Source of the DNA: Ginglymostoma cirratum
Taxonomy: Eukaryota
Assembly (NCBI GenBank): GCA_024137785.1
Contig: JAHRHZ010000107.1
Span: 186,001-250,000 of the forward strand
Length of the DNA: 64,000 nt
Reading direction: 5' to 3'
Notes under the pieces: model-generated
Told to the model about the DNA's origin: nothing
Database searches by the model: none
What the model saw: the letters and a program-made list of their open reading frames with translations, nothing else
Shown: piece by piece, positions 91 through 62,645 of the stretch
Numbering within the stretch: position 1 is the stretch's first letter
Layout: every line of letters starts with the position of its first letter
Program-made: the position numbers and the translations under genes

Positions 91-248
91 ACACCCCTGA
101 AATAATGGAAAGCCCGGAAGACTATGGCACAGAAGAAGATGAACTAGAAAATGTTAATGAAGATGCCAACAGTTCATTATCCATCGTGACTTTCGAGATC
201 TTGTTTATTCTCAGTATGCTGTACAGCACATTTGTAACTGTGCTTAAG
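91..248 (+). CDS. IgNAR: IgNAR membrane exon TM1 (cluster A; upstream exons lie outside the window)
   Basis: Acceptor ttgattgcag ends at 90 and donor AAG|gtaata follows 248. Phase-1 exon encodes (D)TPEIMESPEDYGTEEDELENVNEDANSSLSIVTFEILFILSMLYSTFVTVLK: acidic spacer plus the Ig transmembrane motif TF..LF..S..YST.VT. The IgNAR assignment rests on a paralogous copy that follows an IgNAR C5 exon at 22083. Confidence 0.88.
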
Positions 249-839
249 GTAATAACACATTTCAATAGCAATGCTTTCGGAGCTGAGAAGTTGCTAATCT
301 TCACCTCGTAATGCATACATTTTACTGAAGAATAGATGCTCCTATACAACAGAATGAAATTGGACTTGACTGATTAACTGTCTTCTTGAATATATCTCCT
401 AGATAGAATGATTGCACGGAAGAATGAATGCAAACATAAAATACTGTGGTATTTAGAAACAAAAATATGTCAGTAATGGGATAATGCTTAATTGTGAGCC
501 TCGGCTCATAGAAGGACATAATACAGGGTAAAAAAAGATTTGGTTCGTACTTATTGGTAATAAATCAGGCACAGTGAAATGTATTGAGACAAGAGGGTAT
601 GAATGAAACAAATAGATTGAAAAGAGTTCACAAATAACTGTTTTGAAATGATTCAGCATCTCCGCAATGGAATGAGGAAAACATCAGTTAATGAAGGATC
701 AGCGACAGATCAGTGTGAAGATACTGGGAAAGCATGGGTATGTTTGCATACAAAAATGACAGGCGAATTGATTTGTAACATGCAAGGTTTTTTTCCAGGA
801 CTTGGCAGGATAAATGCAGAGAACTGTTTATCCTGGAGG

Positions 840-1370
840 GAGAGTCATAGGCTCATGAAACACGGAAGAGGAACTTCGACCCATCGAGTCTGCACCGACC
901 TAAATACTCCAATCCCACCTTCCAGCATTTGCATTGAATGTTATGATAATTCAATTGCTCATCGACGTTCATATCAAAGGTCTACTCCCTTCCCAGGCTG
1001 TGTATTCCGGATTCCTATCACTGTCTGGATGAACAAATATTGCCTCAAATTTACTCTAACCCACCCGCCCTTCATTTTACAATTATGTCTCTCCCTCATT
1101 GACCATTCAACTCTGGGAAACAATAGTTTCTTACCTACCCTGTCCATGCCTCCCATAATCATATACAGCTCAACTACGTCCCCATTTGTTTTACCTTTTA
1201 AGGAAACGTACAGCCAATCTTCGTAACTAGAATGCTTCGGGTGTGGTGAATCTCTTAGACACTCCCTCTATTGCAACCACAACCTTCCTATTGTTTGGCG
1301 AGCAGAACTACACACAGTTATCTGCTGTGGCCTAATCGAAGTTTTGTATAGCTCCAATATAACCGCCCTG
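840..1370 (-). mobile_element. CR1-type LINE, decayed 3' fragment
   Basis: Begins with a gagtcatag tail-like motif and resembles the 3' part of the copy at 6690-7300. Confidence 0.55.
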
Positions 1371-1981
1371 GTCGTAACCCTAACCCTAACACGACACAAT
1401 ATATCCTGATAAAGTTGAGTGTCCAGACGCATTCATTAAAAAAAAGTGGCCAACGACATCCGCACAATGTTGAGAATGCGAATTCAATACCTCCAGCATC
1501 CTTTCTTTGAGGGAATGTTTCATCACATCTCTCCAAACAGGTTAGCGTTAAATATATTATTATCCCTCACAGTTGTGTAGTGTGTGATCAACAACATCAA
1601 TATCATCATCAGATAATGAGATGTAGTTACTACCTCAAAACATCATTTTCATCCATCTCAAGAATTGTCTTATTTCACTTAATTTCTCGAAGAGCTAATT
1701 TCAGCCACCTTGAATAATTGATCTTTGAATGAATTTCAGCCTAAACGCTGCAACCAACCCTCATGCGTTTCAGATGTTTAGGCATTGCATCGTTCTGGTG
1801 ACTCAGTGTAATGGACAATTTATGACAAATGCATCCACCTTGCAGTAAGGTCTGTCGAACCAAACACAAAATTAAGAGTTGTATGTAATTATAACAGAAT
1901 GTCTCGCTCTTTGCGTCTCATACACACACAGTCTTGAATTCGAAATCAGCGTTTTGTTCATGAAAAAGGAACAATACAGAC

Positions 1982-2115
1982 GTTCTGCAGAAAGGTCACT
2001 GCACCCAAAGCTTTAACGCTGCTTTCTCTCCACAGATGTTGCCAGACTCGCCGAGTTTTTCCAGAAATTTCTGTTTTAGGTTCACATTTCCAGTATCCAC
2101 AGTTATTTAGTTTTC
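1982..2115 (+). mobile_element. Short Penelope-derived element with decayed hammerhead motif
   Basis: gttctg..aaaggtcactgcacccaaagc..cacagatgttgccagac..tttctgttttag..ccagtatcc; same family as 22173-22312 and the tail of the Penelope element at 57560-57645. Confidence 0.7.
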
Positions 2116-3036
2116 TTGATTGATGAGAATGTGTTGTCTGACAAATATAATTTCTACATTCCAGCCATATGTTTTGCGAGTAGCTGGAAACCTCATTTCA
2201 CAAGACACCTGATTAAGTCAGAGAAGACATTTCATATTTTTTTGACATGTTCAAGGAACATGCAAGATCCTTTTTGCATTTTATTTTTAATCGCTTGTGT
2301 ATTGAATATCCCACACAGACATAAGTTGTCATCTGTTGATTTTTTCAGCAAAACAGGTTCTGTTGGAATTCCCTGCCCTAATTTTCGAAATTTAATTCTC
2401 ACCACTTTGTCGTTATATGCTGCAGGGTGTGCTGCTTCGTTTTTTTCATTAACTGGCCTCTGAAACACGTTATTCCCCCAGCACTTCCGCAACCAGTAAT
2501 CACATTGTCAACTGAAAACACGGTTTTCCTTGAGCTATTTCAAGTGACACGCCAATTGCAGGATCATGGTGTGGAGTGAAAATTAATTCAATTAATTTAA
2601 CAACAGGAATTTATCATTTGTTAATGTTTATAAATCAAATTTGCTCTGTGTTTGGCAACGGTAAATGACCTGACACTTGCCCACACGGGCCTTGATCTAC
2701 CTTTATTTCCTCTTTCTCGTTTGATCTGCTGAATTGCTAGAAAAGTTCGCTGCACACTACTTGCTATGCTTCTAAACTTTATCTTCTGTGAAAACTTGAA
2801 TCTCGGCTCCATTCGTCTTTCTTCCAAGTCCAGATTGTTCTTTGTCCTTTGCATACTTGAAGAAACATCTGACAGTGTTGAGGCTACCTCGGCATAAGCT
2901 TTGGTCAACCATTTCCAGATCATATATCAGATCTCTTGATTTCATAACTACAGTCTGGCTTTTTTGTGTATGCAATATTGATGGTGTTTGTATATTTTAT
3001 TTCAGTAATTATTGTTTCTCCCCCTCCCCCCTGCAG

Positions 3037-3045
3037 GTGAACTGA
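3037..3045 (+). CDS. IgNAR: IgNAR membrane exon TM2, coding part (VN-stop; cytoplasmic tail KVN)
   Basis: Strong pyrimidine tract tttctcccccctcccccctgcag, then GTG AAC TGA. Phase 0 matches the TM1 donor and gives a KVK-like Ig tail. Confidence 0.8.
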   Translation: MN

Positions 3046-3330
3046 CCACTGCTGTTGAAGACAAATACATCTGGTTTCATGGAAATCTTATGACTGAAAC
3101 CCCATCAGATACTGATCGCAAATGGAATTGAGTTGATTTTTCCTCTCAACCATATCAGCTGTTCCCTGGCATTACGTCAGTGTGTGTTCCTATGTGTCTC
3201 AACTTCGGAATGAGAACTGCTTGCACGTTTTCGGTCATGAGCGTTTGCCTTTGCTTTTTTTTTTACCTGTTAGTTTTCAAGAAATCCAACTTAACTGCTG
3301 CAAACTGAGGAAATTACACGTCCACAGTTA

Positions 3331-3336
3331 AATAAA
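3331..3336 (+). terminator. Candidate poly(A) signal for the membrane-form mRNA
   Basis: AATAAA about 285 nt after the TM2 stop. Confidence 0.5.
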
Positions 3337-4904
3337 CTGAAGGTAAATCTTAGAAATTTGTCACGTGTCAGTATAACATTTTGGAAGAGTGGAGATGTAT
3401 CTTATGTAACTGACCTGTTAGAGATTTGTGCAATATAACTTTGAGACTAGTAATCAGATCAACTTTCCTTATAGAACCAGTAGGCAGGCTGTCAAAAATA
3501 TAATTTTTACACAAGAGCATTGGGTAGACAAAAGCCCATTGATTTCACAAGAGTGTTCATTCACTCCTATAGAAAAAAAAGTACATCATCCAAATATTGC
3601 ATAGAAAAGTTTTGAAATGTACCTACAAGTATGAAATTTCTTCTCGCCACTGTTGTTATTAATAACCTGACTGTGCAAGCCGAAGTTTTCCCCTGTTTGG
3701 CATTTTTATTTGCTAAGTACTGAGGCTATCAGTGCTCAATGTGAGTAATAATGTCGTTTTCTAGAACCAGCAGAGGAAATGTTTGGGAATATCTTCAGTT
3801 TTTCACTGCATACAGAGCCCAGACAACACTTAATAAAAGGTCATGTATTACATTCAGTTTGATTCCATCTTGGCACAGTCTCAGGATTTCATACTCTCGC
3901 AGAAATCTCATAAATGCGATAGACTGCTATTACTATCCGTAATCGCCTTGAGAGATTATCGCAGCCCCTTTTCTTTATCCACTACAACCTATGTCACGTA
4001 GAGGACTGCACTACCCTTATATGCAGAAAAGTGTTGCAAATATGATTCCTTGTTTCAAACCATGCTGACGAATTCCCATGAAGTATGTTGTCAGATAATA
4101 GTTGCTCCAAAGCAATTGCTGTGAGGGATATTTTCCAACATACTATAAAATGATTCGCTGTCTCTCTCTACCAAAAAAATGACAAAGCAAAGGCAAACCG
4201 ACAACAGACACTGCGTAACATCGCAGTTAACATTGAAATAGTAGATTTCGCTGCTGTCTTTTGAACTGCAAATCTTGCGAGTTACTTTGAAAGTGATTAG
4301 TTGTTATATCAGAGAATAAATCTTGTTTTGAATGAGTCAGGTATTCAATCTTGGCAAGAATACGCTGTTCAACCGCTTGTGCCATTTTTGTCATTTTTAA
4401 AGCTTCTGTTTGTTGACTACCGTCACTCTGTTTCCGAACATTTGAATTAACTTCATTAAAAAGACTATAATTCTTGTAATTTACAAAAAAAGAAGTGACA
4501 TTAACTTTGGAAGCTTGCAATAATTTCCCCAAACTGTGGAAATATAATGTTGCCATATATAGATTTAAATATGTCTTTGCCTTCAATGTTGCTGTTGTAT
4601 TGTTATTTAGTTATTACCTTCATATTCAGTCAACGCAGAGGTGTGAAATGTAGCTGTTATTATCTCCTTCATGTTGCCATTCATTCAAGTTTTGCTGAAA
4701 TCCTGATCTTAAATCAAGCACGTGTTTTCAGAACGCAATTTCTTTCAGTTTGTTCCAATGGGTGTGTCAGTATTCGCCTAATATGTGGTGCTCCTTGAGC
4801 AAATAAAATCAAATTAATCATTTTGTAAACTGAGCAGTCGGTGTTCAGAACCCTATTCATTTACTTCCAATGTTTACTCCATGAGATTGAATCACAACTC
4901 ATTC

Positions 4905-5275
4905 CTGCAAAGTGGGCAGCATTGACAATTTCATTGCCCATCTCCAATTCCTCCTTGAGAGATTAATAGTGGCCTGTTTTCTTTATTCATTACAATCTAT
5001 GTTACATAGAGGACTGCACAAAACTGTCGACTTGCATGTCAGCATAGTTCGTGAATTGAAGAGGAATTGGCAAGCACTCATTTATCGAATGCATCGGATG
5101 ACCTTGCACTTCCAGAGAGTAGAGCAACGTCGTTCGGAATTTGCCACACGGCAAAGAAGAGGCACAGAAAGCCATTGCATCGGCGTCATGAATTCTAGCT
5201 GCCATCAGCATCCAGTCTTCAATTCTTCATTCTTCATGAAAGACAGAAATCATTTTATCGATCTGTATTGAATTG
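4905..5275 (-). mobile_element. Decayed SINE fragments
   Basis: Motifs cattgcccatctccaattcctccttgag and tgaattctag..tgcc, also seen at 57030-57385 and 50190-50330. Confidence 0.4.
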
Positions 5276-5729
5276 CTAGTTCTATTCAGTAATGAATGAA
5301 TCAATTACTCAAAAATTCTTAGCAGATCTTGATGACTTGGTACTGGATATTATCGACAGTGCTGATTTAATTATTTCACTTTTTAGAAGTGAAATTGGGT
5401 TTATTGTTGCAAGAAGGCAGAGGTTTGAAATTCTGCAGTGGGTAAATCCTGAATTCTGTAATTCCTGAAGGGCCAGATCAATAAAAGTGGCCTCAGCTGA
5501 GATGCAAAGATTCCAGGGACGACATTTAAAATTATTTTTAAAATGTCTTTTAAACAACCTTATAAGACGTCATGCCAAAATATTACTGCAGTTAGCCACA
5601 TTGTCAATTTTCAGTGGCACAAAACAAGAAAGTTTGATAGTCCAAAGATTTCTTGGCATCACTCAAAAGCTCACTCTCAATGCAGTCCCTTGTTTCCTTA
5701 TGTCTACAGTTTGAAGGTTGGCCTCACGT

Positions 5730-5795
5730 TTCCAACCAGTCCTACCAGTTTACAACAACCAGTTTACTTCCAACGTCCTACCAGTTTACAACAAC
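5730..5795 (+). repeat. Short tandem duplication
   Basis: gtcctaccagtttacaacaac occurs twice with ccagtttac between the copies. Confidence 0.75.
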
Positions 5796-6689
5796 ATCTG
5801 CGTTTCATGCAGTCCCTGGACATTGCGAATGACCCAAAGGCTCTTGAATAGAAGCCTTAAGAGACAGAAAATGATATCACCCTCCAAAATCAGATTTCAG
5901 TCAGTAATTTACAATAGTCATTAGCTATACATTCAAGCATCATCGAAAGTTATGGGGAAAGGCCAAAGCGATCCTTCACCAACATTTCCTGCAAGCAAAA
6001 TCTTCAACAATTTACTTGAAATGGCTTCACTCCCTGTCATGTTTTAAAAAATACGGATGGAGGTGACATAATATTGGATTCCACGAACAGATTTTGATAC
6101 CCTGCAGAGCCCAAGAACACACGTGCAAAACAACTGAATGTATAATATTAGTTTCAATAGTCTGAAGTCAATGCAATTATATTCAAGGAACAATGAGATT
6201 GAATCCACCATGCAATCTCCCTGATTGCTGTTCTGGTCATATCATGTTAATCTTTTCCGATTTCAACAACCTGCTTCTTATCAATCACAGAAAACAAAAC
6301 AAAACCTGCCAGTAAATCTTCCATGTATAATTTCTTTCCTCATTTATCGTATTCAAACTGACCATTTCAATTGGATTCAACAGAAGCAAAACTCTGTTGA
6401 AGTTATTCAGCTTTTTATCTCAGGAGATAACTTAAGCCACAATCTTTCTATACTTCGAAAAGAAGCCAAAATTAATGGATTTCCGGCAGAAAATTACACA
6501 TTGCAGCATGGTTAGGAATCAGTTTATGCTTGGTTGTGATGGTCCACTCCTGTAAAAAAAAATCAGTTGATATCACAGAATTTCTCTCCACCTAGAGACG
6601 AACGTTTGCCATTGCATGTCTGAGGAACAGGAGAAGGCATCTCAGATTGCATCGACAGGACTTCTGTTCACTTTGATCGTAAATAATTT

Positions 6690-8900
6690 CAGAAAGTCAT
6701 ACAGTTGTACAACACGGAGACAGGCCCTTCGGTGCAAACTGGTCCATGCTGATGAAAATGTCCATCCACGTTTATCCCATTTCCTTGCACTTGGCTCATA
6801 ACTTTCTGAAGCTTTCCTATCCATGTGTTCGTTCAAATGCCTTTTAAATACTGTTAACACCTCAATGACTTTGGCTGGCAGCTCATTCCATATGCGCACC
6901 ACCCTCTGTGTAAAAAAGTTGCCCCTCAGGTTCCTATGTATTCTTTTCCCTCTTACCTCAAACTGATGCTTTCTCCACCTCGATTACCTCACCTTGGGAA
7001 AAGAACTGAGCGCATTCACCCTATCCATGCCTCTCGTGATCTTATTTACATGTATGAGATCCACCGTCAGTATCCTATGCTCTAAAGAAAGCAGTTATAG
7101 CTTGTTCAACATCTCCCTTTAACTCAATCTCTTGAGTCCTGGCAACATCCTTGTAAATTTCTTCTGCACTCTTTCCATTTCAACAACATCCTTCTTACTG
7201 CAAGGTGACCAAAACTGAACACAATACTCCACCGACCACCTGTACAACTGCAACATAACTTCCCAACTTCTATCCTTCATATCCTGACTGATAAAGGCCA
7301 GCGTGCCAAAAAACTTTCTTCACTGCCCTGTCTCCCTGTGACTCCACTTTCAGGGAACTACGCACCTGAACTCCATAGCCTCTCTAATCCATTACACTTC
7401 TTTAGGCCCTATCAGTCACCATGAAATTCCTGCCCTGATTAGACTTTCCAAAATGCATCACCTCACACTTTTGTACATTAAACTCCATTTGCCATTTCTG
7501 GCCCATTTCCCCAGCTGATCAAGATCCAGATGCAAGTTCTGATAATTTTCCTCACAGTCCACTATACCACCTATTTCAGAGTCATCCACTAACTTGCTAA
7601 TCATGTCTACACAAACTTCCTCATCATGTCTTGTGCATTTCATCCAAATCATTGAGAAAGGTTACAAACAGAATTGGGCCCAGCAACGACCTCGAGGTCC
7701 ACCACTGATCCCAGTCGTTCAATCAGACAAGCGTCCTTCCACTATTACTCTCTGGTGCCTACCATCAAGCCAATTGTCCAAAAGCCTTATTGAAATCCAT
7801 ATAGACTACATCTCTTGCCCTGTCCTCATCAACCTTCCCAGTAACTTCATCAAAGAACTCCAACAAATTTGTGAGGCATGATTTCCCACACACGAAGCTA
7901 TGCTAAATACTTCTAATCAAACCCTGTTTTTTTTCCCTAAATGCATGTATAACTTATCCAGCAGAATCTTCTCAAGTAACTTACCTACCTCAGGTGCTAA
8001 GCCTTCTGGTCTATAATTCCCAGGTTTTTCTTTGTCGCCCTTTTTGAAAAGGGCTCGACTTTCACTACTGTCCAGTCTTCTGGGATCTCACCACGGCTAA
8101 TGATGATGCAAATATATCAGCCAAGGTCCCCACAATTTCTTCTGTAGCCTTTTGAAGGATTCTTGGAAATATCTGATCAGGACCAAGAGATTTATAAAAG
8201 CTGAAAGAGCTGTGGATGTGGTAAATCAGGAACAAAAACAGAAAGTTCTGCAAAAGCTCAGCAGGTCTGGCAGCATTTGTCAAGAAAAGATCAGAGGACC
8301 CGAAACTTTCATTCTGACTTTTTCTTCACAGTTGCTGTCAGACCTGCTGAGCTTTTCCTGCAACTTTTGTTTTTGTTCCAGGAGATTTATCCACCTTTAT
8401 ACATTCTAATACGACCAAAGCCTCCTCTACCGTTATTTGGACTGTCCCCAAGATATCAACACTAACTGACCCAAGTTCCCAAGTTTTCTTGTGGTCTCCA
8501 CGGTAAACACAGAAGAGAAATATTCATTGAGGACCTCACCCATCTCCTGCAATTCCACACATGCATGTCCACTTTGGTCATTGAGGAGTCCTGTTCTCTT
8601 TCTCGTCATTCTATTTCCTTTAGTATACTTAAAGAATCTCTTTGGATTCACACTAATCTTCTCAGCGAAACCGATCTTGAGCTTCCCTTTCGCCTGCCTG
8701 ATTTCCTTCTTCAGTAAAATCCTGTGTCCCTGATATACCTCGAGGGATTCCCTTGATCCGAGATGCCTGTTTCTGAGCTATGCTTCCTTCTTTTTCGAGT
8801 CAAAGCCTCAATACATCTTGTCATGGAGCGTTTCCTACTCCTGCCAAACTTGCTTCTGACCCTCACAAGAACATATATACCTTGGACTCGAGTTATCACA
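6690..8900 (-). mobile_element. CR1-type (HER1-like) LINE, 5'-truncated, degenerate ORF2
   Basis: Minus-strand ORF pieces NPKRFFKYTKG..EMGEVLNEYFSSVFTVE, KSLGPDQIFPRIL..EEIVGTLADIF, ISKLVDDSEIGG..DLDQLGKWA and VRIWNELPAKV are typical CR1 ORF2 motifs. 3' tail near 6695. Confidence 0.88.
8196..8377. mobile_element. Penelope-derived insertion with inverted halves, nested in CR1
   Basis: 13-bp target duplication ccaagagatttat (8183-8195) / ccaggagatttat (8378-8390); internal inverted arms of about 65 bp. Confidence 0.8.
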
Positions 8901-9484
8901 CTTTTAAATTCTACCTTCTTGAACTGATCGTGAATCCCAGAATGCTCCAAGAACAGTCAATCACAAACTTGAACGTATTCAGCTGATGATGTTGAGCTCT
9001 CTGTGCAATTAATTACAATGATTAAATAACAACTGTATGCTGAACATTTCCTGTCATGCTTTTGAAACTCACTGATATCTCATAATGACAAAAAGAAAGC
9101 AGGCTCAAGACATTCTAGACAGGTAGAAGCTCCGAACATATACCTTAACAAAATCTCAAAAAGTCTAATTCTGTCAATTGCAAACATCTCATTCCTCAAA
9201 CTCCGAAGAATGTCGGAGCAATTTACACAGTCTCACAAAAGGAGCATTCCCAACACATTCGCTCTCACAATTTTTGTTTGAATACAGCACGTAAAAACCT
9301 CATGTCCTGTGAGTTTCCAATCCAAGTTCCCGCTAAATTAGCTAAACTGGTAATGCATGAAAGATGATGGTTATTCAAACACTAGCCCACGAAGAAACAT
9401 AAACAGAGGCAGTCATCATGGCTGGAAAATAATTTCCTAACACATTGGCAACAACAGATTAGAGCTGCAACTGATTAGAAAGAA

Positions 9485-9745
9485 AAAAGAGCTAAAAACA
9501 GGTCAGCACATGATCAGGCCCTTTGCACCTCCCAGCCTGTGCAAAAACATTTTGGCCTTCCATACCAAAACTGTCCTCACCCACAGGAATTGTATCCCTG
9601 CATTCTGTTACTACCTATGTATCCATCTGTGTTGCTTGAATGCTGCTGTTTCTCTGCTTCCACCACCTCCTCCGGTAGCACATTCCAGGTACTCACACTC
9701 TTTGTGTGGAAGACGTGTCTCTTTTAAACTTGCCCCCATGATATG
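9485..9745 (-). mobile_element. CR1 3' fragment
   Basis: Similar to 6700-6960 (ggccctt..tatccatc..ggtagcacattcca..cactct..tgtg). Confidence 0.55.
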
Positions 9746-11388
9746 ATAATATGATAATTAACGTTCCCCAAATATTCCCAAGCCTATAAATATTCTTCCA
9801 ACCACATTTCATCCCGTAGTTCGAAATACAGTCTTTTGTTTGTATTGAGCAAACTGGAAGCATACTGTCCAATAAATGTTTCTTGTACACAATTGTACGC
9901 AAAAAAAGAAGCACGCGATCATGCTGGGAATTTTCCACAAAATAGAACACAAATAGAATAGACTGGAAATGCTCAGCAGGCTGAGCCACATCTGAGTAGA
10001 CGAAAACAAAGTGAACATTTCACATAATGAGTTTTGATCAGAACTCTTCTGTTGAAATATCATGACATGAAACTACAATCCTGGGAAATGATTCAGCTGC
10101 CTCGTAATTGTATCTACGACGATGTGCCTTCTGCCCCTCTGCCAAAGATTTTACATTTAAATGCGTCTGTATGAATCCGATTTCCAGATTCTTCAACCTC
10201 TCAAAACTTTCTTCCTGTGTGTAATTCGTTCATAATTTCAAACTTGTTACTATGTAGGCCAATATTCATAGACATTCCAATAAAAACAAAATTCAAATTT
10301 CATTTGTTATTTAAATAATTATGTCTACACGCCAGTCAACATTCTCATGAATCTCTGGTACAAACTCCGAAATCATAATTTTCAAACTCTTCGCTGGAGT
10401 TGAACACTGAAATTTTATAATCTGCAGCACCGGTTGAGATTTGTAGTTTACTCCAGCATCAATTTTAACCAAACCGTTTAATTGGACTTTTTCGAGTGTA
10501 TCAAGTTTTCACTCCCTGCATGCTGAAACATCTCTACCAGAGCCAACCAGCAAACTTCTGCAGATTCACAGAATATTGCCCTTTTGTTTAAAAACTGCGA
10601 GCTTTCTCAGAATTAATAGTGACTTGCATTTGCTAGTATTAACCAAATCGCTTCAATTTATGAGTTTCTCTTTGATATTCTAAATTAGTAACCGTAAAGT
10701 CTATCTTAATAAAACGTTCAAATTTTAACAGCACTCGGATTACATCCAAATCGTTGACATTCTTATCGAATGGAATTTGTCTGAGAAGCTAATCATGTGT
10801 GTCACCTCGATCCAGCTGAATATTATTTCTTCCTTCTCTATTCTTTGTTCTGATTTATTTTGATTGACTTCTACGTAATCTTCCACAATATGCAATTTTG
10901 AAAATCTACATTTACTTCAGAGCTAGTTAATGGTCAAAGTTTTCATTGTTCCAACGTATGTTTCAGTTTCTGTTATAAATGAACATGACACAACAAAATA
11001 AATTACGCTTTTCTATTGTTCTGACCAGGACAAAAGTTTCTACTCATAGATACGGCTTAGTGGAAGCTCAGTTGTCAGAATCACAGTATAGGGGCTCTCA
11101 GTCGTAATTATTTGCAATACCTGTGCTCTTTTGCCGACGAGTTCTCTGTCTTAAGACAGTAGGTGTTCCTGGATTTGAAATTAACATGTCACGATGTTCA
11201 TAAACGAAGAAATTAAGCACATGTGATCAATGCGGTCTAAAGAAATGTAACACAAACATTATGAAGTGTTTTCCACAGTACAATCATTATTCAGTTCATT
11301 CTAAATTGCCGATAGATTTCGGACACAAAACTCAGTCCATTACATTCCGTGAACAACGATCAATGTGACTAATCTCTTGGTGCACTCA

Positions 11389-11396
11389 ATGCAAAT
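11389..11396 (+). promoter_or_regulatory. Octamer ATGCAAAT of the pseudo-VNAR promoter region
   Basis: Exact octamer starting 65 bp upstream of V framework 1, followed by TATA-like GATAAAA at 11418. Confidence 0.55.
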
Positions 11397-11453
11397 CATG
11401 TCACTCTCCTCTTGATAGATAAAATTCGTGTATGAAATGTTACCAAATTCATT

Positions 11454-11699
11454 GCGTGGGTGAACCAAATACCAAGAACGACAATGACAGAGTTGGGAGA
11501 ATCAGTGACCATCAACTGTGTCCTAACAGATTCGAGCTGTGCATATTGGAATCAGACAATATTGTTCTCAACAATCAAGGAGATAATGTCAATTGGCGGA
11601 TGATATGTCGAATCAGTTAACAAGGGATCAGAATCATTTTCTCTATGAATAAGTGTCCTGAGAGTTCACGACAGTGGTAGTTATAAGTGGAATTCTTGG
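11454..11699 (+). pseudogene. IgNAR: Germline VNAR pseudogene (cluster B), type II/III-like (CDR1 Cys)
   Basis: Manual translation [80 protein letters not shown] aligns with the VNAR framework (no CDR2). Stops at 11601 and 11646 fall at Arg positions, the second Cys is Trp, and CDR1 has an in-frame deletion of about 4 codons. Confidence 0.94.
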
Positions 11700-11737
11700 C
11701 ACATTAATAACTCTGATGGTCTACCATTACAAAAACA
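11700..11737 (+). other. V recombination signal sequence (two-turn spacer)
   Basis: CACATTA + 22 nt + ACAAAAACA directly after the V coding end. Confidence 0.85.
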
Positions 11738-11938
11738 CCTTCAAATCTTCTGCGCAGCAAATTGGACTTTGTTTTGTTTTCTCAGTGCTCAAAATTAATT
11801 TTGAGGCTTCCAATTGTACGATGGAATAGCAGGATGCAGATTGTAAATAATTGATGCCCGACCTCAGCAGAAAAATAGAGGAAGGGGGAAATGGATATTT
11901 TGTACTGCTGTGTAATTTCAAGTAACATGCGATCCACT

Positions 11939-12021
11939 AACTACTGCACTGGAATGTATCACTGTGCAGCTGCGATGGTAGCCACAGCAATCAAGAAGAC
12001 AGTTCTCGTAATACAGCAACT
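11939..12021 (+). pseudogene. IgNAR D segment (12-D-23), coding 11967-11982 CAGCTGCGATGGTAGC
   Basis: Degenerate nonamer + 12 nt + CACTGTG (11960-11966); CACAGCA (11983-11989) + 23 nt + ACAGCAACT. Confidence 0.8.
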
Positions 12022-12399
12022 CCGACCACACATTGCTGCTGGAATCAGAAACACATTTATTTATTGGTTCTCACAATGAGTCACTCCACGTGAGCTCGGA
12101 AGGATATCAACGCTGCTTTGCTAATCCAACAGTTAGAAAACATGTTTTGGGAGGAAGACGGATTGCATTTTGCATTTTTACCAAAGAGATCCGACAAGTA
12201 CAGAAAAAGCAAATGAGCAACGAGAGACAGAATCTGGTCCCTTAAAGACCTACGAGGTCATCCATGTGTTGAAACTCAGGAGATGGGAGAGATACAAAAT
12301 GAATGCTTTGAGTCAGTTTTTCACTGTGCAGACTCTTCTAGGAGAGTCCACATTACAGAAGAGGGACGTCTCAGAAAAGAATAAGGTATGTCAGTCTCC

Positions 12400-13405
12400 T
12401 GAACGTGAACACGTGTATACCATGATCTTGTCGGGAGTAAGGGAAGAAATTGCCGGCCCCTAGCAGAAATATTTCTATCATCTATAGTCATGGATGAGGG
12501 GTTGGAAGACTGGAGAATGGATAATATTGGGGCTTTATTTAAGAAAGGCGAAAAGTGGAAACCTGGGAGCGATAAACCTGTGAGCCTGAAATTGCTTGTG
12601 GGCAAGTTGTTGAAGGTGATTCTGACAAATGGGATTGACATGCACTTGTACAGGCAAAGACTGATTAGGGATCATCAGCATTGTTTTGTGCGAGTGAAAT
12701 CGTTGTTCACAAACCATTTGACTTTTTTTTGAGAAAGTAGCCATAAAGATTGATGAGGGCAGAAAGGTCGACGTCATTTACATGAACTTTCGTAAAACCT
12801 TTGACAAGGCTCTGCATAATAGACTAATTAGTAAAGTTTGACCACATAAGATTCAGGTTGAGCTTGCCGATTGCATGCAAATTTGGCTTGATGGTCGGAA
12901 ACAGAGATTGGTGGTGGTCAGCTGTTTTTCGGAGTGGAGGCCCGCAACCAGCAGTGTTACACAATGATCAATAGTCAGTCCATTTTTGTTTCCCATCTAT
13001 ATAAACGATTTGTTTGAGAATACAGGAGAAATGATAAGGAAGTTCGAAGATTACACCAAAAATGTTAGCATACTGGACAGTGAAGAAGACTTTCTCAGAT
13101 TATAAAGACATCTTGATCATTGGGTCAATGGGCTGAGGAGTGGCAGATGCAGCTTAATTTCTGAGGAGGAATATTTAAGGACTTCAGGGGCAATTATTTT
13201 ACACAGGGAGTGGTTTTTGTGTACAATGAATTACCACAGGCGGTTATGGATGCGGGTATAGTTATAATATTTAAAAGATACATGGATAAGTACATGAATA
13301 GGAAAGGTTTGTAGTGATATCGGTCAAGCACAGGCAAATGAAACGAGTTCAGATTGAGAAAAATTTTGGTGTGTACTATTCGGAGCGCATGGCCTATTTC
13401 CATGT
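12400..13405 (+). mobile_element. CR1 LINE fragment inserted between D segments
   Basis: ORF pieces LEDWRMDNIGALFKKG..PG..PVSL..VGKLL..QHCF, an RT YMxFxKxFDK-like motif, and a 3' tail tatgagtctatgact. Confidence 0.85.
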
Positions 13406-13466
13406 TGTATGAGTCTATGACTCTGTCACTCGCTGACCTGCGGCTTTTCCAGGAATGTACTTTGGA

Positions 13467-13511
13467 CGTTTTTGCATTGATCTGTGTGACTGTGTGACGG
13501 GTTGCACCATG
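13467..13511 (+). pseudogene. Candidate second D segment (decayed)
   Basis: CGTTTTTGC + 12 nt + GACTGTG (13488-13494), core TGACGGGTTG, weak 3' heptamer CACCATG. Confidence 0.5.
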
Positions 13512-13646
13512 TAAACGAATCATTTTACCCGTCGTACATACATCGTCCCAGCAACTCTTCATGCATATTCCTGTCTCCATGCCTAAGCACCTCATAATTA
13601 AATATTTCTTGCAACCACCAGGAACGTGCTGGTGCTTTAGAATGAC

Positions 13647-13721
13647 TTTATTGCTCATTTACGTGATTACTGTGTGAATTCTATTGTCAGATTCACACTG
13701 GAAAGTTCATAATTCTCCAAC
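13647..13721 (+). pseudogene. Candidate third D segment (decayed)
   Basis: TACTGTG (13668-13674) + 19 nt core + CACACTG (13694-13700); nonamers are poor. Confidence 0.5.
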
Positions 13722-13895
13722 ATTTGGTGTGGGACTAAGAATGCTAAATGTCTACTTGAAACTCAATATCAAGAGAAGGAATAGCACTATGTTTGCTGCA
13801 CCAGTTCAATAACATCCTGGAAGATCTGTAAGTTTTTCTGCAATAATTACAACATGGATTTCATGTCATGATGTGCCATGTTGTATACTTATCTC

Positions 13896-13929
13896 TACGG
13901 TGTTGATGCGATATGAATTGAGATTCCTG
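13896..13929 (+). pseudogene. Candidate J segment relic
   Basis: tacggtgttgatgcgatatgaattgagattcctg|gc is colinear with the VNAR J motif YGGGTVVTVNP-G. The donor reads GC, a nonamer-like AGTTTTTCT lies at 13831, and the position after the D segments is as expected. Confidence 0.4.
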
Positions 13930-16973: not shown

Positions 16974-17070
16974 AACAAGCATGGGGCTGGATGAACACAG
17001 CAGGTCAAGCAGCATCATAGGAGCAGGAAAACTTGACGTTTCGGGCCTAAACCCTTCATCAGAAAAAAAA
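16974..17070 (-). mobile_element. Young Penelope terminal repeat bordering an assembly gap
   Basis: Near-identical to 49540-49621, 50022-50117 and 53829-53938. Confidence 0.85.
17032..17065 (-). ncRNA. Minimal type I hammerhead ribozyme motif with intact core
   Basis: Minus strand reads ttt-CTGATGA-a-GGG tttagg CCC-GAAA-CG-TC-aag. Confidence 0.65.
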
Positions 17071-43700: not shown

Positions 43701-43708
43701 GAGCCGAT

Positions 43709-49539: not shown

Positions 49540-50117
49540 TCAGAGATAAAAGGTACTGCAGATGCTGGAGAATCCGAGATAACAAGCATGGGGCTGGATG
49601 AACACAGCAGGTCAAGCAGCANNNNNNNNNNNNNNNNNNNNNNNNNNNNNNNNNNNNNNNNNNNNNNNNNNNNNNNNNNNNNNNNNNNNNNNNNNNNNNN
49701 NNNNNNNNNNNNNNNNNNNNNNNNNNNNNNNNNNNNNNNNNNNNNNNNNNNNNNNNNNNNNNNNNNNNNNNNNNNNNNNNNNNNNNNNNNNNNNNNNNNN
49801 NNNNNNNNNNNNNNNNNNNNNNNNNNNNNNNNNNNNNNNNNNNNNNNNNNNNNNNNNNNNNNNNNNNNNNNNNNNNNNNNNNNNNNNNNNNNNNNNNNNN
49901 NNNNNNNNNNNNNNNNNNNNNNNNNNNNNNNNNNNNNNNNNNNNNNNNNNNNNNNNNNNNNNNNNNNNNNNNNNNNNNNNNNNNNNNNNNNNNNNNNNNN
50001 NNNNNNNNNNNNNNNNNNNNNCTTTCTGGTGAAGGGTTTAGGCCCGAAACGTCAAGTTTTCCTGCTCCTATGATGCTGCTTGACCTGCTGTGTTCATCCA
50101 GCCCCATGCTTGTTATC
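49540..50117. mobile_element. Young Penelope-like insertion with inverted termini spanning a 400-N gap (49622-50021)
   Basis: The same repeat lies in opposite orientation on each side of the gap; target duplication aaggtatatagta (49527-49539) / aaggcatatagta (50118-50130); hammerhead core at 50026-50053 reads CTGGTGA. Confidence 0.85.
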
Positions 50118-55771: not shown

Positions 55772-55789
55772 CCTGTGATTGAGGTGTCC

Positions 55790-57645
55790 GAACGAGAAAG
55801 GAACAGACTGTCTCTTCGTGAGGTATGTGGAACATTCCTTGTTCCAGTCCTATTCCAACCCACACCGACAGTTCTTTCTCTGATATCATGTCATCGGTGC
55901 TGCCACCATTTCTCGTACAAAATTGGAAAAGTTCATTGACTTCCAATTTCCACCCTGCACTCAATTTCACCTGGTCTTTCTCGGACTTCTTCATTCCCTT
56001 GCTGGACATGTCTGTTTCCATTTCTGGGGATAGACTGACCACTAATATCCACAACAAATCCATCAACTCCCACAACTACCTGGACTATATGTCTTCGCAA
56101 CCTGCTTCATGATTAAATTCCATCCCATTTTCTCAATTACTCCACCTCCATTGCATATGTTCAGCCGAGGCCAACTTTGACAAGGGGGACTGCAAAATGC
56201 CCACCTTCTTCCTCAACTGAAGATTCCCCATCACCATTGCCGACAGGGCTCTCAACCGGGACCGGTCCATCTCCTGCACTTCTGCCCTCACCCGCTTTCA
56301 TCACTCCTGCAAAAACAATGTGTTCCCTTTGTCCTTACCTACCATCCAACCAGCATCCACATTCAAAAAATCATCAGACGCCATTTTCGCCACCTCCAGC
56401 AAGATGCCACCACCAGATACGTATTCCCCTCCGCTCCCTTGTCTGCCTTCCGCTGGGGCCACTCCCTCCTGGAAATCCTGGTCCACTCTTCCTTCATTCC
56501 CAACACACTACCACTTTGCCGCGGCAACTTCCCCTGAAACTTGTAAAGGTGAAACACCTGCCCATTTACCTCCTCCCACAGCATCCAAGGGCCAAACATA
56601 CCGTCCAGATGAAGCAACACTTCACCTGCACTTTCCAAAATCTCGTCTCCTGTGTTCGCTGCTCACAATGTGGTCTCCTCTACACTGGGGAAACGAAGCA
56701 TAGATTAGATGTCCGCTTCGCAGAAAATCTATGCTTTGCTCACGAAAAAAGACTCTGAGCTTCCTGTTGCCTGCCTCTTTAAAATACCACCCTATTCCCT
56801 CGCCAACATTTCTGTCTCAGTCTTGCTGGAGGGTTCCACTGAAGCTCAGCACAAGTTGGAAAAACAAAGCCTCTTTTTCCACTCGGTGACCCTGCAGCCT
56901 TCTGAACTGAACATGGAGTTCAATAAATTTAGGGCTTAACCTCTTCCATGTTCAGACCCCTACCCCACACACCAGGTCTTGTTATTACATCACCTGCCAT
57001 TCCAAAATACCTGTTGTTTGCCACTACCTTTTACTCATTCACAGGATGAGGGCGTTGCTGGATCAACCAGCATTTATTGCCCATCCCTAATTGTCCAGAG
57101 GGCAGTTAAGAGTCAATCACATTGTTTGGGTCTGGAGTCACATGTAGACCAGACCAGGTAAAAATGGCAGTTTCCTTCCCAGAAGTACATGAGTGAACCA
57201 GATGTGTTTATTCCAACAATTTACAATGGATTCCTGGACATCATTTGATTCTTAATTCCAGATGTCTCATTGAATTCAAATTCCACCATCTGCCAATACA
57301 GAATTCGAGCCCAGGTATCCGAAATGGTATCTGCGTCTCTGGATTAATGGTCTAGCAATAAAACCACCAGGCCATTGCCTCACCTAACAGTCCCCATTAA
57401 CAGCTATTCAACATTCTAGCCAGATAGTTAACAACTCCTCTGTCTATCCATTGTTCTTCTCTCTCTTTGGGCTTTCTCCTTTACCTATTGTTTACTCACT
57501 ACCCCATCCCCCACCCTGTGGTCTACATATAAACTACCATTTTCTTTGCTGACATCAGTTCTGAGCAAGAAAACCGGACCCTTTTTTTTGTTTTGTTTTC
57601 TCAGAGGTGCTGCCAGACCTTTTCCGGCAACTTTTGTTTTTGTTC
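55790..57645 (+). mobile_element. Penelope-like retroelement, 3' half (RT C-terminus, GIY-YIG endonuclease, terminal repeat)
   Basis: SNFHPALNFTWS..PLLDMSVSISGDRLTT.IH.K..NSHNYLDY.S and HFTCTFQNLVSCVRCSQCGLLYTGETKHRL..RFAE are Penelope RT/thumb and GIY-YIG motifs; frameshifted; the tail at 57560-57645 matches the short elements. Confidence 0.9.
57029..57385 (-). mobile_element. SINE nested in the Penelope 3' region
   Basis: catttattgcccatccctaattg..ttgaattcaaattccaccatctgcc..antisense tRNA-like head; partial copy at 16870-16965. Confidence 0.7.
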
Positions 57646-57984
57646 GACAATGTGTATTTCTACTTCTGATACTAATAATGATTTAGTTTATTCTACTGCT
57701 ATGTGCTACTATGCAATTCTGAATTGGAACGAAGACGCTGAGTGAAACTAACGGGAGATTCAGAGGAGTCTGGTGAGACAGACAGAAATGTACTATTGGA
57801 TGGGAATCGATGGAGACAACAAATATGCAACAATATGTTGTGTTGAAACATTCATTGAATAGATTGTAATAAGGACAAGACAAATATGGTTTACTGTACA
57901 GCACTTTTCAGTGACCTGTCAGGGATAATGATTTCAATGATCTTCTGTGCTTAAAATTCATCAAACCTCGCAGTGTGGTAAATT

Positions 57985-58440
57985 TTCTCTATCTCTCCAT
58001 GTCTCTCGTCCTCTCTCTCTCATCTTTTTTTACTGTCTGTCTCGCGCTGTCTCTGTCTATCCACCTGCCTGTCTGCGTCCACTAATCTCTCTCGTTCTGT
58101 TAGTTTATCTCTCCTTTCACTGACTGTGTGTTTATGTCTCGGTTTTTCTGTCTTCCACTTTCCATGTCAGAAATATTTCATCCTTTATTTTCCTATCAGT
58201 GTGGATTTAAATTAATGTTTGTTCATCATTCATTGCTTCTCCATGTGTTCCTATTTCTGGTTGCACCTGGCGCTCTACATGCCTCCATCTCTAATCTTCT
58301 TCATACTGTCTGACACTCTCCCTTTCTCTCTGGCTATCTTCTTCAATCTGTCACCATTCATTCTCCACATTTACGTCTCTCTATTTACATCTCACTATCT
58401 TAGTCTGCCTGTCTTTCCCCTCTCTCTCCCTGTGTCTCCC
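57985..58440 (+). repeat. CT-rich low-complexity tract
   Basis: Direct inspection. Confidence 0.7.
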
Positions 58441-58634
58441 CACCAGCATATATGATGCAAATCAACAAATATGATTACAGTAATGGCGCTTCAAATTCAA
58501 TACATATCAGTGAAGGATATGGTTTTATCTTACAATCCCTTTTCACTGGTTTTGAAATCCTTGCAACATTCCTGGTATTATTGTTATTATTGGAACATGG
58601 ACCCGAATTTAAATCTCTGATTTCTCATTCACAC

Positions 58635-58937
58635 AAATCACTGTATTACTTAGGAATCCATTTGTTGAAGGAATCTGGGTCAAGAGAAGTGCCAAGCTGG
58701 TTTGCAAAGTGCTTATTACAGATTCTGCTGGGGTAGTCATCTCTTGTGTGGTGGATGAAAAGTTAAGGAATGAAGGCGTTCAACTGGAAACAGCTAAAAT
58801 TGATAGAAACCAATATCTGACCATCAGCCGCTTGACCAGTAGCGTGGAGGAGTGGCAGAGTGGGATAGAATATACATACTCTGCAAAACAGGATCAAACA
58901 TCGACCTCAATATCAAAACGAACAAGGAAGACAAAAG
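58635..58937 (+). pseudogene. IgNAR: IgNAR C2 exon (cluster C), splice-defective
   Basis: ITVLLRNPFVEGIWVKRSAKLVCKVL..SAGVVISC..RNEGVQ..NQYLTISRLTSSVEEWQSGIEYTYSAKQDQ..KRTRK. Acceptor reads cacAC, donor reads GC, core Trp>Cys, second Cys>Tyr. Confidence 0.93.
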
Positions 58938-59041: not shown

Positions 59042-59359
59042 TCGAGCCAATTAAGCCACATCTCCGCCTCCTTCCCCCATCATCAGAAGAGATTCGAAAC
59101 ACCAGCTCTGCTACTCTTACATGTTCGATAAAAGGATTCTATCCTGACAAAATAAGCATTTCCTGGGAGAAAGACAGAGCTTCTGTGAACGTGAACATCA
59201 TTAATTTCCCCACTGCTCTGGAATATGACCTGACCTTCAGTGCACAGGGCCTCCCCATTTTACCTATACTGGAATGGAAGAGCAGAGCAAAATACACCTG
59301 TACTGCCTCACACCCACCTTTGCAATCCACTGTGAAGAGTGTCATAAGGAACTTAATAG
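59042..59359 (+). pseudogene. IgNAR: IgNAR C3 exon (cluster C)
   Basis: EPIKPHLRLLPPSSEEI..SATLTC..GFYPDKI.ISW..YTCTASHPP..; both Cys intact; acceptor reads tatCG; donor G|gtaagg is intact. Confidence 0.93.
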
Positions 59360-61248: not shown

Positions 61249-61326
61249 TCAGAGATAGCAGGAACTGCAGATGCTGGAGATTCTCCGCTGCTTGGCCTGC
61301 TGTGTTCATCCAGCTCTACACTTGGT
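61249..61326. mobile_element. Mini Penelope-derived insertion with inverted junction
   Basis: Perfect 14-bp target duplication attctccaactctt (61235-61248 / 61327-61340). Confidence 0.85.
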
Positions 61327-61404
61327 ATTCTCCAACTCTTGTTGTGTTTTTGAATTGATATCAATACTACATCCTGAAAAATGTGCATTCCTTATTCTTT
61401 TCAG

Positions 61405-61726
61405 ATGATTGCAGTCGTCCAGACATTTCTGTCAATCTACTGAAACCACCTTTTGAAGAGATCTGGCCACAAAATACAGCGACTATTGTTTGCAAAATCG
61501 TTTATAGTGACTTAGAAAATATCAAAGTTTTCTGGCAAGGGAACGGGACTGGGAGAACAGAAGGAGTCGACACACAGAATCCTGAGTGGAGTGGAAGTAA
61601 ATCCACCATTGTGAGCAAACTTAAAGTCAAGGCTTCGGAGTTGGACAGTTGTGCCGAATATACCTGCTTGGTAGAAGACGGTGAATTGCCAACACCAATG
61701 AAAGCCTCTATCAGGAAGGTAAAATG
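61405..61726 (+). pseudogene. IgNAR: IgNAR C4 exon (cluster C)
   Basis: DCSRPDISVNLLKPPFEEIW..TATIVC.IVYSDLENIKVFW..EYTCLVED..ASIRK. Acceptor intact; an extra base before the gtaagt donor makes it phase 2, out of frame with C5. Confidence 0.92.
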
Positions 61727-62262
61727 GTAAGTGGGGATAATACTGCAAATAAGAGCAAAATACCATGAAGGTCAGAAATGAGAAGTGAAAAAATAAGTGC
61801 TGGACAAACTGAGCAGAATCTGTGGACAGACAAAGAAGGTGAACATTTCCAGCCCAGTATGGTTTCCTTTCAAAAAGAGAGTTTGTGTTACTAACTAGAT
61901 AAAACTGATTCAATAAATAACTATCTTATCAAAACATTAAATTTTTACGTTATACAGTCAGATGCCTAGTAGTCCGGAAACCTGCCATTCTGCAAAAGTA
62001 TAATGACAAACATGAAAACCTATAAGTAGGTCAATAATTTGTACCCCAAAAGCAGCAATCCTTTTCAAATATGTGATTGCCTCCAAGCTTTTTTTTTTCT
62101 TTTATCCAGCAAAGTAGGGATGAGAAATGGTCTAGTATTCAAAGATATTTGCACAGTCTTACAGATAGGGCACACTTCATAAACCACTTGCATTATTAAC
62201 AAAAGAAATTACAATGTCGATATAAGACGGGCTCAGTTAAATAAATATTGCTCTCTTTACAG

Positions 62263-62645
62263 TCAGTGAATTCCATCATCCTAAGGTTTATGTCCTACAT
62301 CCATCGACAGATAAGATTGACACTGAGAATTCAACTACACTGGTGCGTCTAGCCACCGACTTTTACCCCGCTGAGATTTACATTGGTTGGATGGCCAATG
62401 ACACCCTTTTGGATTCCAGGTACCAGACCCAACTGGAGAGCGAGAAGGGGAATGGTTCCACCTTCATCGTCAGCAGATTGAGACTCATAACGGCAGAATG
62501 GAACAGTGACACCACTTACTCCTGCTTAGTGTGGCACCCATCCCTCAGCTGGGATTTAATCAGACGTACAAATAAATTTCATGGTAAACCAACATTAGTT
62601 AATGCTTCAGATGTACTAAGCGACACTGTTAAATCCTGCACATAA
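62263..62645 (+). pseudogene. IgNAR: IgNAR C5 exon plus secretory tailpiece (cluster C)
   Basis: Acceptor tttacag; SEFHHPKVYVLHPSTD.IDTENS..LVRLATDFYPAEIYIGW..YSCLV.HPSL..GKPTLVNASDVLSDTVKSCT*. First Cys codon reads CGT (Arg); internal TM donor G|GTAAAC at 62584. Confidence 0.93.

What the first reader, a model, noticed from the sequence alone, without database searches (positions are those of the whole stretch)
91..62645. Three head-to-tail IgNAR clusters at different stages of decay
Seen: intact TM exons (A), an old V-D-D-D-J...C5-TM pseudo-cluster starting only about 8 kb downstream (B), and a younger C2-C5 pseudo-block (C), all on +. Established: shark Ig genes occur as miniclusters and IgNAR clusters are few. 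Inference: this is a birth-and-death tandem array in which B is a deeply diverged paralog that annotation would probably miss. Close same-orientation spacing could also permit inter-cluster recombination or splicing.
Basis: partly seen in the sequence, partly recalled or inferred. Interest (0 to 1): 0.7.

Follow-up and report, generated by a model that had tools for sequence, protein, structure and literature searches.

The report
Fossil shark nanobody genes in tandem
This stretch of shark DNA holds the tail of an intact single-chain antibody (IgNAR) gene followed by two broken relatives of different ages, and in the older one two gene segments sit fused in inherited DNA, likely joined by the antibody recombinase in germ cells before two shark species split.

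Summary
The window has three same-strand IgNAR units: the TM exons of an intact cluster (A2, type III-like), an old relic B (promoter, V, D1, D2, fused D3-J, C5-Sec, SINE-split TM; no leader, no C1-C4) and a recently disabled C (C2-C5, TM beyond the window, no V-D-J-C1 found in the genome). The flanks show five units, A1-B1-A2-B2-C. One 115-kb tandem duplication (8% diverged, AAG at the junction, ending at window ~34,413) copied A together with an already dead B. Synonymous divergence from A: duplicates 0.11, C 0.33, B 0.66-0.99. New here: B lacks the ~390 bp between D3 and J, with both ends at RSS borders, in both copies and in a second species: a likely germline V(D)J join. A published nurse shark locus with three clusters fits A1, A2 and C; I found no mention of B. 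Weak points: C5 alone does not statistically exclude IgW, the gap between B and C is unbridged, and nothing supports inter-cluster recombination. The scan noted a germline-joined dead IgNAR exon in another genome before.

The parts
1..34413 (+). Right-hand part of the second copy of a 115-kb tandem duplication (G000:C107:761-116178 copied to 116179-220413); ends at about window 34413
   Evidence: Self-alignment and junction analysis: 8.3% substitutions over 91,789 aligned bases, AAG shared at the junction
91..248 (+). Cluster A2 TM1 exon, intact; carries Glu inside the membrane span where A1 has Val
3037..3045 (+). Cluster A2 TM2 exon (Val-Asn-stop), AATAAA at 3331
9743..11408 (+). Relic B 5' flank and promoter remnant with octamer at 11389-11396; about 225-230 bp holding TATA region and leader exon deleted right after it
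   Evidence: 64-67% identity to the A1 upstream region; promoter profile E 1e-5; split alignment
11454..11699 (+). Relic B V exon: 4-codon deletion, two TGA stops (11601, 11646) shared with B1, splice acceptor lost
11700..11737 (+). V 3' RSS, 22-bp spacer, near-consensus nonamer
11960..11989 (+). D1 (coding 11967-11982) between its heptamers
   Evidence: alignment to A1
12181..13400 (+). High-copy repeat inserted between D1 and D2, shared with B1 (CR1-type LINE by recalled motif; Pfam gave no support on a 32-residue piece)
13488..13511 (+). D2 (coding 13495-13504) with a well-kept 5' 12-RSS
13858..13929 (+). D3 5' RSS (nonamer 13858, heptamer 13879-13885) abutting a fused D3-J coding remnant (13886-13929); J donor GT changed to GC
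   Evidence: split alignment score 222 against 142 unsplit, 389-395 bp deleted, ends in D3 and J
13930..14190 (+). Start of the J-C intron, homologous to A
   Evidence: local score 84 against a maximum of 51 in 200 shuffles
17071..17470 (.). 400-N gap inside B, spanned by the collinear B1 copy
19329..19697 (+). Relic B C5 plus secretory tail: 1-bp frameshift, first Cys lost, 15-bp deletion in the tail; no C1-C4 remnant upstream
22083..22383 (+). Relic B TM1 exon, split by a SINE-like repeat from 22175, donor lost
49622..50021 (.). 400-N gap between B and C, flanked by inverted copies of a young repeat; not bridged
57643..58634 (+). Start of C's homology to A, inside the C1-C2 intron; everything 5' of it (leader, V, D, J, C1) is missing
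58635..58937 (+). Relic C, C2 exon: open frame, acceptor AG to AC, donor GT to GC, second Cys and the core Trp lost
59042..59359 (+). Relic C, C3 exon: open frame, acceptor AG to CG
61405..61726 (+). Relic C, C4 exon: 322 nt against 321 in A1 and A2, so the splice to C5 is out of frame
62263..62645 (+). Relic C, C5 plus secretory tail: open frame, first Cys changed to Arg

Best explanation
The window is the 3' part of a shark IgNAR tandem array, A1-B1-A2-B2-C, in which B is a long-dead IgNAR paralog with D3 fused to J, likely by RAG acting in germ cells, and C is a broken paralog that likely died more recently. Order of events: (1) inferred: B split from the A/C line at dS about 0.7-0.9, after or near the split from a deeper, still intact cluster on contig C115; (2) shown: B lost the 390 bp between D3 and J with both inner RSS; inferred: a germline V(D)J join, which would have left a cluster that obeyed the 12/23 rule with three joints instead of four; (3) shown: B lost its leader and C1-C4 and gained stops, a frameshift and repeat insertions, all shared by both copies; (4) inferred: C split from A at dS about 0.33, before nurse and bamboo sharks parted; (5) shown: one 115-kb tandem duplication with 3-bp microhomology copied A and the dead B together (dS 0.11), after which A stayed under purifying selection and B drifted; (6) shown: A2 has a fused D1-D2 and Cys-Ala-Trp in CDR1, the type III marks; (7) shown: C lacks its 5' half and has dead splice sites while its exons stay open; inferred: a recent death. 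B and C most likely make no protein.
For: Exon map. Duplication: 8.3% over 91.8 kb with an exact junction; run X1 holds pieces with 0-1 differences from B2 and 5 of 5 tested divergent pieces with exactly the B1-B2 difference count, so both copies exist. B is IgNAR: V tree 96/96 with A, AU rejects B+NARTCR (p 0.036) and B+C115 (p 0.041); B C5 is 66-70% identical to IgNAR C5 and 54-56% to the genome's IgW; the IgW clade excludes B at 97/95; C5+TM DNA tree puts B with A/C at 93/92; non-coding homology to A1 but not IgW. Dead before duplication: shared lesions, B1-B2 dN/dS 0.79 against A1-A2 0.25, Fisher p 0.013. D3-J join: all 8 best splits against A1 end at 61435-61451 (D3 is 61439-61450) and restart at 61826-61847 (J starts 61830); contigs of a second species label, 6-8% from B2, run across the join (X3 13400-14823, X9 13599-14128). 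Germline joining by RAG in sharks: PMC2193156 (passages); type III D1-D2 fusion: PMC4622739 (passages).
Against: On C5 alone the AU test does not reject B+IgW (protein p 0.29; DNA p 0.20; C5+TM p 0.07) or B+IgM (p 0.17), and B's C5-TM intron aligns to A only weakly (score 104 against 48 shuffled), so the 3' half of B is placed less firmly than the 5' half. The D3-J junction is only about 10 decayed bases, and the two upstream heptamers share TGTG, so a plain microhomology deletion or a hybrid joint fits too. The gap at 49622-50021 between B and C is not bridged. C's branch shows no significant excess of amino-acid changes (16 synonymous:30 non-synonymous against 12:18 on A, p 0.81), so its time of death is inferred from open frames, not measured. 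X1 may not be independent of the assembly.
Confidence: 0.8

Rival explanations
1. B is IgNAR, but the D3-J fusion is an ordinary deletion between the short repeats in the D3 and J upstream heptamers, with no RAG involved, and may have happened after B died.
For: Both heptamers end in TGTG, and in the C115 cluster both are followed by TAG; B has other deletions (leader, C1-C4); B1's junction matches the 5' end of the C115 J at 8 of 10 bases, as if J began right at the heptamer.
Against: Both ends fall within about 20 bases of RSS borders in a 1.6-kb V-J region; the best split keeps part of D3 and trims J, as a coding joint does; the neighbour A2 carries a D1-D2 germline join.
Confidence: 0.2
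2. B is a chimera: the 5' half of an IgNAR cluster joined by a large deletion to the terminal exon and TM of another cluster, possibly IgW or a deeper IgNAR.
For: C1-C4 are gone and J-C5 is only 5.4 kb; AU tests on C5 and TM do not reject B+IgW or B+C115; non-coding homology to A is strong in the 5' half and weak in the 3' half.
Against: V and C5 give similar dS to A (0.66-0.75 and 0.71-0.99); C5 and TM are 10-15 points closer to IgNAR than to IgW; 180 bp of intron before TM1 aligns to A1 (E 1e-10 with the exon).
Confidence: 0.1
3. The array is partly an assembly product: C belongs elsewhere or has a complete 5' half hidden by the gap, so it is not a 5'-deleted neighbour of B.
For: Unbridged 400-N gap with inverted young repeats on its flanks; both A clusters have gaps in C2-C3, and V genes matching solved type I and type II domains were not found in the assembly, so it is likely incomplete.
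Against: C's loss of homology starts at 57643, 7.6 kb from the gap, in continuous sequence; C's splice defects and frameshift disable it anyway; C's 3' flank is collinear with A1's for 25 kb more; the first gap is spanned by B1.
Confidence: 0.1
4. B or C still serve the live clusters, as donors for inter-cluster rearrangement, gene conversion or switch-like splicing.
For: Same orientation and 8-kb spacing; B keeps a near-consensus V RSS and D2 RSS; C keeps open frames and live C4 and C5 acceptors; switch-like V-to-C exchange is described for nurse shark IgM/IgW (PMC4279169, passages).
Against: B drifts near neutrality; B's D and J lie downstream of A's constant region, so using them would delete A's C exons and lead to no C1-C4; reviews say IgNAR rearranges solely within a cluster; the third locus of PMC11641339 was undetectable in RNA-seq.
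Confidence: 0.05

Closest known systems
Nurse shark IgNAR loci GcIgNAR1-3 (Tang et al. 2024, PMC11641339; parts 1-3 of 4 of the text read, plus figure legends by search)
   Same: Three loci on one scaffold, all with gaps, two expressed and the third silent; this fits A1, A2 and C. A2's C4 matches PDB 2mkl at 102 of 103 residues (that 2mkl is nurse shark is recalled).
   Different: The paper's text has 0 hits for 'pseudogene' and 'duplication' and describes nothing like B1/B2, the D3-J join or the C115 cluster. It calls its expressed loci type I and II, whereas germline A1 here has no extra Cys in V and A2 has the type III marks. Whether it is the same assembly was not established; figures and supplement were not seen.
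Type III IgNAR cluster with fused D1-D2 (PMC4622739, passages)
   Same: A2 has Cys and Trp in CDR1 and a fused D1-D2.
   Different: B's join is D3-J, in a dead and far older paralog.
Germline-joined shark Ig clusters: VD-J, VD-DJ, VDJ in IgM (PMC5192425, passages); joined light chains (PMC2193156, passages)
   Same: Segments fused in inherited DNA with loss of the intervening DNA and both inner RSS.
   Different: A D-J join with V, D1 and D2 left split, in IgNAR; searches listed no such case. It is shared by a second species, whereas PMC4622739 suggests such joins may be species-specific.
White-spotted bamboo shark IgNAR region (PMC8692893, section 26 and passages)
   Same: Several clusters in one region: seven in 800 kb, three incomplete and without V (like C), three with pre-joined D segments.
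   Different: No cluster with a decayed V plus only C5-TM is described in the text; which D segments are joined is in a figure I could not see.

Membership tests
IgNAR cluster (relic B) | VNAR-type V closer to IgNAR than to NARTCR V | tested here: met
   DNA tree of 14 V rows: B with A1/A2 at 96/96; AU rejects B+NARTCR, p 0.036
IgNAR cluster (relic B) | One V, three D, one J with 23/12-type RSS | tested here: met
   V RSS, D1, D2, D3 5' RSS and J remnant in A's order, D3 fused to J
IgNAR cluster (relic B) | Five constant exons | tested here: not met
   Only C5-Sec; profiles of C1-C4 find nothing in B. Read as deletion: B is a remnant, not a complete cluster
IgNAR cluster (relic B) | Terminal C exon and TM group with IgNAR, not IgW or IgM | tested here: inconclusive
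   Best trees and identities favour IgNAR, but AU does not reject B+IgW (p 0.29, 0.20, 0.07) or B+IgM (p 0.17)
IgNAR cluster (relic C) | Constant exons orthologous to IgNAR C2-C5, Sec and TM | tested here: met
   68-81% identity to bamboo shark IgNAR P0001; inside the carpet-shark IgNAR clade at 100/100
IgNAR cluster (relic C) | Leader, V, D, J and C1 present; intact splice sites | tested here: not met
   None in C107:1-500000 beyond those of A and B, no further IgNAR V in the genome search; dead acceptors and a frameshift
IgNAR type III (cluster A2) | Cys and Trp in CDR1; D1-D2 fused in the germline | tested here: met
   CDR1 reads SCAWD; D1 5' heptamer, 19 fused bases, D2 3' heptamer; V-J span 1.34 kb against 1.59 kb in A1
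IgNAR type III (cluster A2) | Neonatal expression with restricted CDR3 | not tested
   No staged RNA was laid on A2
IgNAR | Heavy-chain homodimer without light chain | not testable with these tools
   Protein property; B and C are predicted to make no protein
Germline-joined Ig gene (B D3-J) | Intervening DNA and both inner RSS removed, ends at coding borders | tested here: met
   389-395 bp deleted, ends in D3 and at the J start
Germline-joined Ig gene (B D3-J) | Present in inherited DNA, not a lymphocyte product | tested here: met
   In both paralogs B1 and B2 and in contigs of a second species label
Germline-joined Ig gene (B D3-J) | RAG/TdT marks at the junction (P or N bases, trimming) | tested here: inconclusive
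   About 10 decayed bases; coding joint, hybrid joint and microhomology deletion score within 1-3 points

The most novel reading that the evidence does not exclude
B is the fossil of a once-working, ancient IgNAR lineage whose D3 and J were joined by RAG in the germ line before two living shark species parted, so that it rearranged with three joints; together with the type III join next door, the array records two independent germline recombinations of very different ages, and the genome also keeps an intact, deeper IgNAR cluster on C115 that the published three-locus map lacks.
Probability: 0.5. Interest if true: 0.6.

Novelty: new variant of a known kind. Interest (0 to 1): 0.42.

Why it matters
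IgNAR is the source of shark nanobodies, yet its germline map is unsettled. This array gives a dated order of births and deaths, shows that dead clusters multiply as passengers of 100-kb duplications, and offers an old, cross-species example of likely germline V(D)J joining, which bears on the open question of how long and how often RAG has edited shark germ lines. It also suggests that the published nurse shark locus types and counts need revision. B and C themselves are most likely functionless, which caps the interest.

Tried and rejected
A third duplicated unit beyond the contig start: first suspected, rejected when the junction showed a single duplication. B closer to the C115 cluster: suggested by a few residues, rejected for V (p-AU 0.041), not rejected for C5. 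B's 5' half as the missing 5' half of C: rejected, since B's V is at dS 0.66-0.75 from A and C's exons at 0.33, and B+C is rejected on C5 (p 0.004). B without J: suggested, overturned. Leader-like or C-like look-alikes seen by eye near 15500 and 18800-19250: no profile support. Non-coding BLAST distances for A-B (0.34-0.37) were set aside as biased low. Expression: no RNA holder was listed; one raw RNA run (24% read) put no reads on B's C5 and a few on its V, with no positive control for IgNAR in that run, so it is not used. Bridging the second gap: not obtained. Relaxed selection on C: not significant. Rfam found 0 matches; the 33 frames of 120 or more codons showed no further gene by eye; C2 and TM1 had no Pfam hit. 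Two papers on shark Ig rearrangement (PMC3190574, PMC4874517) were not held.
Full report
Setting. The window is G000:C107:186001-250000 in a 4.36-Gb genome. Its exons match shark IgNAR: the C3-like frame at 59041 hits four proteins at E <= 0.001, among them bamboo shark and Triakis IgNAR at 65-73%, and C4 of the upstream cluster matches PDB 2mkl at 102 of 103 residues. Nurse shark or near kin is an inference from that match (the species of 2mkl is recalled).

Observation. I fetched C107:1-500000 and mapped exons with IgNAR proteins and with DNA profiles built from the genome's own clusters. The order is A1 (V at 60245), B1 (V at 95011), A2 (V at 163188; TM exons at window 91-248 and 3037-3045), B2 (window 9743-22383) and C (window 57643 onward, TM1 and TM2 at window-equivalent 70.7 and 76.7 kb), all on +. 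No further Ig exon turned up to 500 kb.

Duplication. C107:761-116178 is repeated at 116179-220413 with 8.3% substitutions over 91,789 aligned bases in 25 pieces; start, junction and end share AAG, and a 16-kb piece is absent from the second copy. The copy ends at window ~34413. Divergence agrees across the unit: dS 0.107 for A1-A2, 0.113 for B1-B2, 0.089-0.095 non-coding. In run X1, two pieces differ from B2 at 0 and 1 places, and 5 of 5 divergent pieces tested have exactly the B1-B2 difference count, so both copies exist; X1 might share its source with the assembly.

Relic B. It keeps about 1.7 kb of 5' flank with the octamer, V, a 22-spacer RSS, D1, D2, a D3-J remnant, the start of the J-C intron, C5-Sec and TM1. 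It lacks the leader (225-230 bp deleted), C1-C4 and a recognisable TM2 coding part (only weak 3' UTR homology, E 0.006). Two stops and a 4-codon deletion in V, a frameshift in C5, the repeat between D1 and D2 and the SINE-like repeat in TM1 are shared by B1 and B2, and B1-B2 dN/dS is 0.79 against 0.25 for A1-A2 (13:37 against 24:23 changes, Fisher p 0.013). B was therefore dead before it was duplicated.

Is B IgNAR? The V tree (14 rows, 9 of them NARTCR-like V) places B with A1/A2 at 96/96 and rejects B+NARTCR (p-AU 0.036) and B+C115 (0.041). Non-coding DNA aligns to A1 at 64-67% over about 2.5 kb and to IgW only in repeats and the C exon. B's C5 is 66-70% identical to IgNAR C5, 54-56% to the genome's IgW and 46% to IgM. 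In the protein tree (26 rows; 16 of the 30 fetched proteins used) B is sister to the carpet-shark IgNARs at 84/89 and IgW is a clade without B at 97/95. Against this, AU tests on C5 do not reject B+IgW (p 0.29 protein, 0.20 DNA, 0.07 with TM added) or B+IgM (0.17); they do reject B as a recent offshoot of A (0.02) or of C (0.004). dS to A is 0.66-0.75 in V and 0.71-0.99 in C5.

The D3-J join. A J profile missed B, but homology to A runs up to the D3 5' RSS at 13858-13885 and resumes in J and its intron (score 84-86 against a maximum of 48-51 in 200 shuffles). A two-part alignment scores 222 against 142 unsplit; all 8 best splits of B2 against A1 delete 389-395 bp, ending at 61435-61451 (D3 is 61439-61450) and restarting at 61826-61847 (J begins at 61830). 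The last 35 bases match A's J without gaps at 20-21 places. This is what a germline coding joint leaves; a hybrid joint or a deletion between the shared TGTG of the two heptamers cannot be told apart on ten decayed bases. I put RAG at about 0.75. Contigs of runs X3 and X9, under a second species label, cover B at 6-8% difference from B2, match neither copy's difference count in 9 of 9 comparable pieces, and cross the join. They share B1's base at 37 of 39 listed sites (one of 40 rows, inside the repeat, was dropped; the list is selected for sites shared between runs). The join, and B's decay, thus likely predate the split of the two species.

Relic C. Its four constant exons are open, but the C2 and C3 acceptors are dead, the C2 and TM1 donors read GC, C4 is one base too long, and C2 and C5 each lack a canonical Cys. 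Homology to A starts inside the C1-C2 intron, and a genome search scored 70 candidates without finding a sixth IgNAR V. dS to A is 0.33, and A1+A2+C as a clade is rejected against bamboo shark IgNARs (p-AU 0.03), so C is an old paralog. Its branch shows no significant relaxation (p 0.81), which fits a recent death but does not measure it. The link from B to C crosses one unbridged gap (49622-50021) with inverted young repeats on its flanks.

Cluster A2. It has Cys and Trp in CDR1 and a fused D1-D2, the type III marks given in PMC4622739 (passages). The array thus holds two germline joins of different kinds and ages.

What is known. PMC11641339 (parts 1-3 of 4 read, legends by search) maps three nurse shark IgNAR loci on one scaffold, the third silent, which fits A1, A2 and C; its text does not mention B-like relics or a duplication. 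PMC8692893 (section and passages) gives seven bamboo shark clusters, three incomplete, three with pre-joined D segments. Germline VD-DJ joins are known in IgM (PMC5192425, passages), and RAG-made joins in shark germ cells from PMC2193156 (passages). PMC12227049 (section 6 and passages) links all IgH isotypes near TCR alpha/delta. Five searches listed no report of an IgNAR D3-J join or of this relic; subscription papers, figures and supplements that I did not see may hold one.

Verdict. The feature is real and the birth-and-death reading is right; the proposed inter-cluster recombination has no support. A and C are probably already mapped; B, its D3-J join and the duplication history appear new but concern dead genes. 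Interest 0.42; new variant of a known kind.

Noticed in passing
G000:C115:234386-261850 (-), loci L059-L062: A complete, deeply divergent IgNAR cluster (leader, V, two D segments seen, J, C1-C5, Sec, TM1) with open frames and canonical splice sites; dS 0.8-1.0 from A, branching outside the carpet-shark IgNAR clade, on a contig that also holds IgM exons and a NARTCR-like V. Not in the three-locus paper's text; expression untested.
   Followed up: partly
G000:C107:60248-60502 and 163188-163442 (L012, L022): A1's germline V has no extra Cys and a Trp where Gly is usual before the second Cys; A2 is type III-like. No V matching solved type I or type II domains was found in the genome search, so the assembly may lack the two adult clusters, and RNA assigned to A1/A2 as type I/II could be cross-mapped.
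   Followed up: partly
window 91-248: A2's TM1 has Glu within the membrane span (TFEIL) where A1 has Val; a charged residue could alter receptor assembly of the type III-like membrane form.
   Followed up: no
G000:C107:71831-71840 and 175426-175435: Both A clusters have a 10-N gap in the C2-C3 region, in place of several hundred bases.
   Followed up: no
window 16959-17070, 49537-49621, 50022-50128, 53828-53938: All five 400-N gaps inspected on C107 are flanked by the same young SINE-like repeat, mostly in inverted orientation; copies are 93-100% alike.
   Followed up: partly
G000:C282:48008-569030 (-) and C115:1243788-1244042 (-), loci L081-L089: Nine NARTCR-like V segments, two with stops.
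   Followed up: partly
G000:C221:59575-81651 (+), loci L090-L092: An IgW cluster with V, J, six C exons, Sec and TM, used as outgroup.
   Followed up: partly
window 44073-44444: Purine-rich 33-bp tandem repeat encoding an E/K/R-rich frame on +, probably a transposon gag-like remnant.
   Followed up: no
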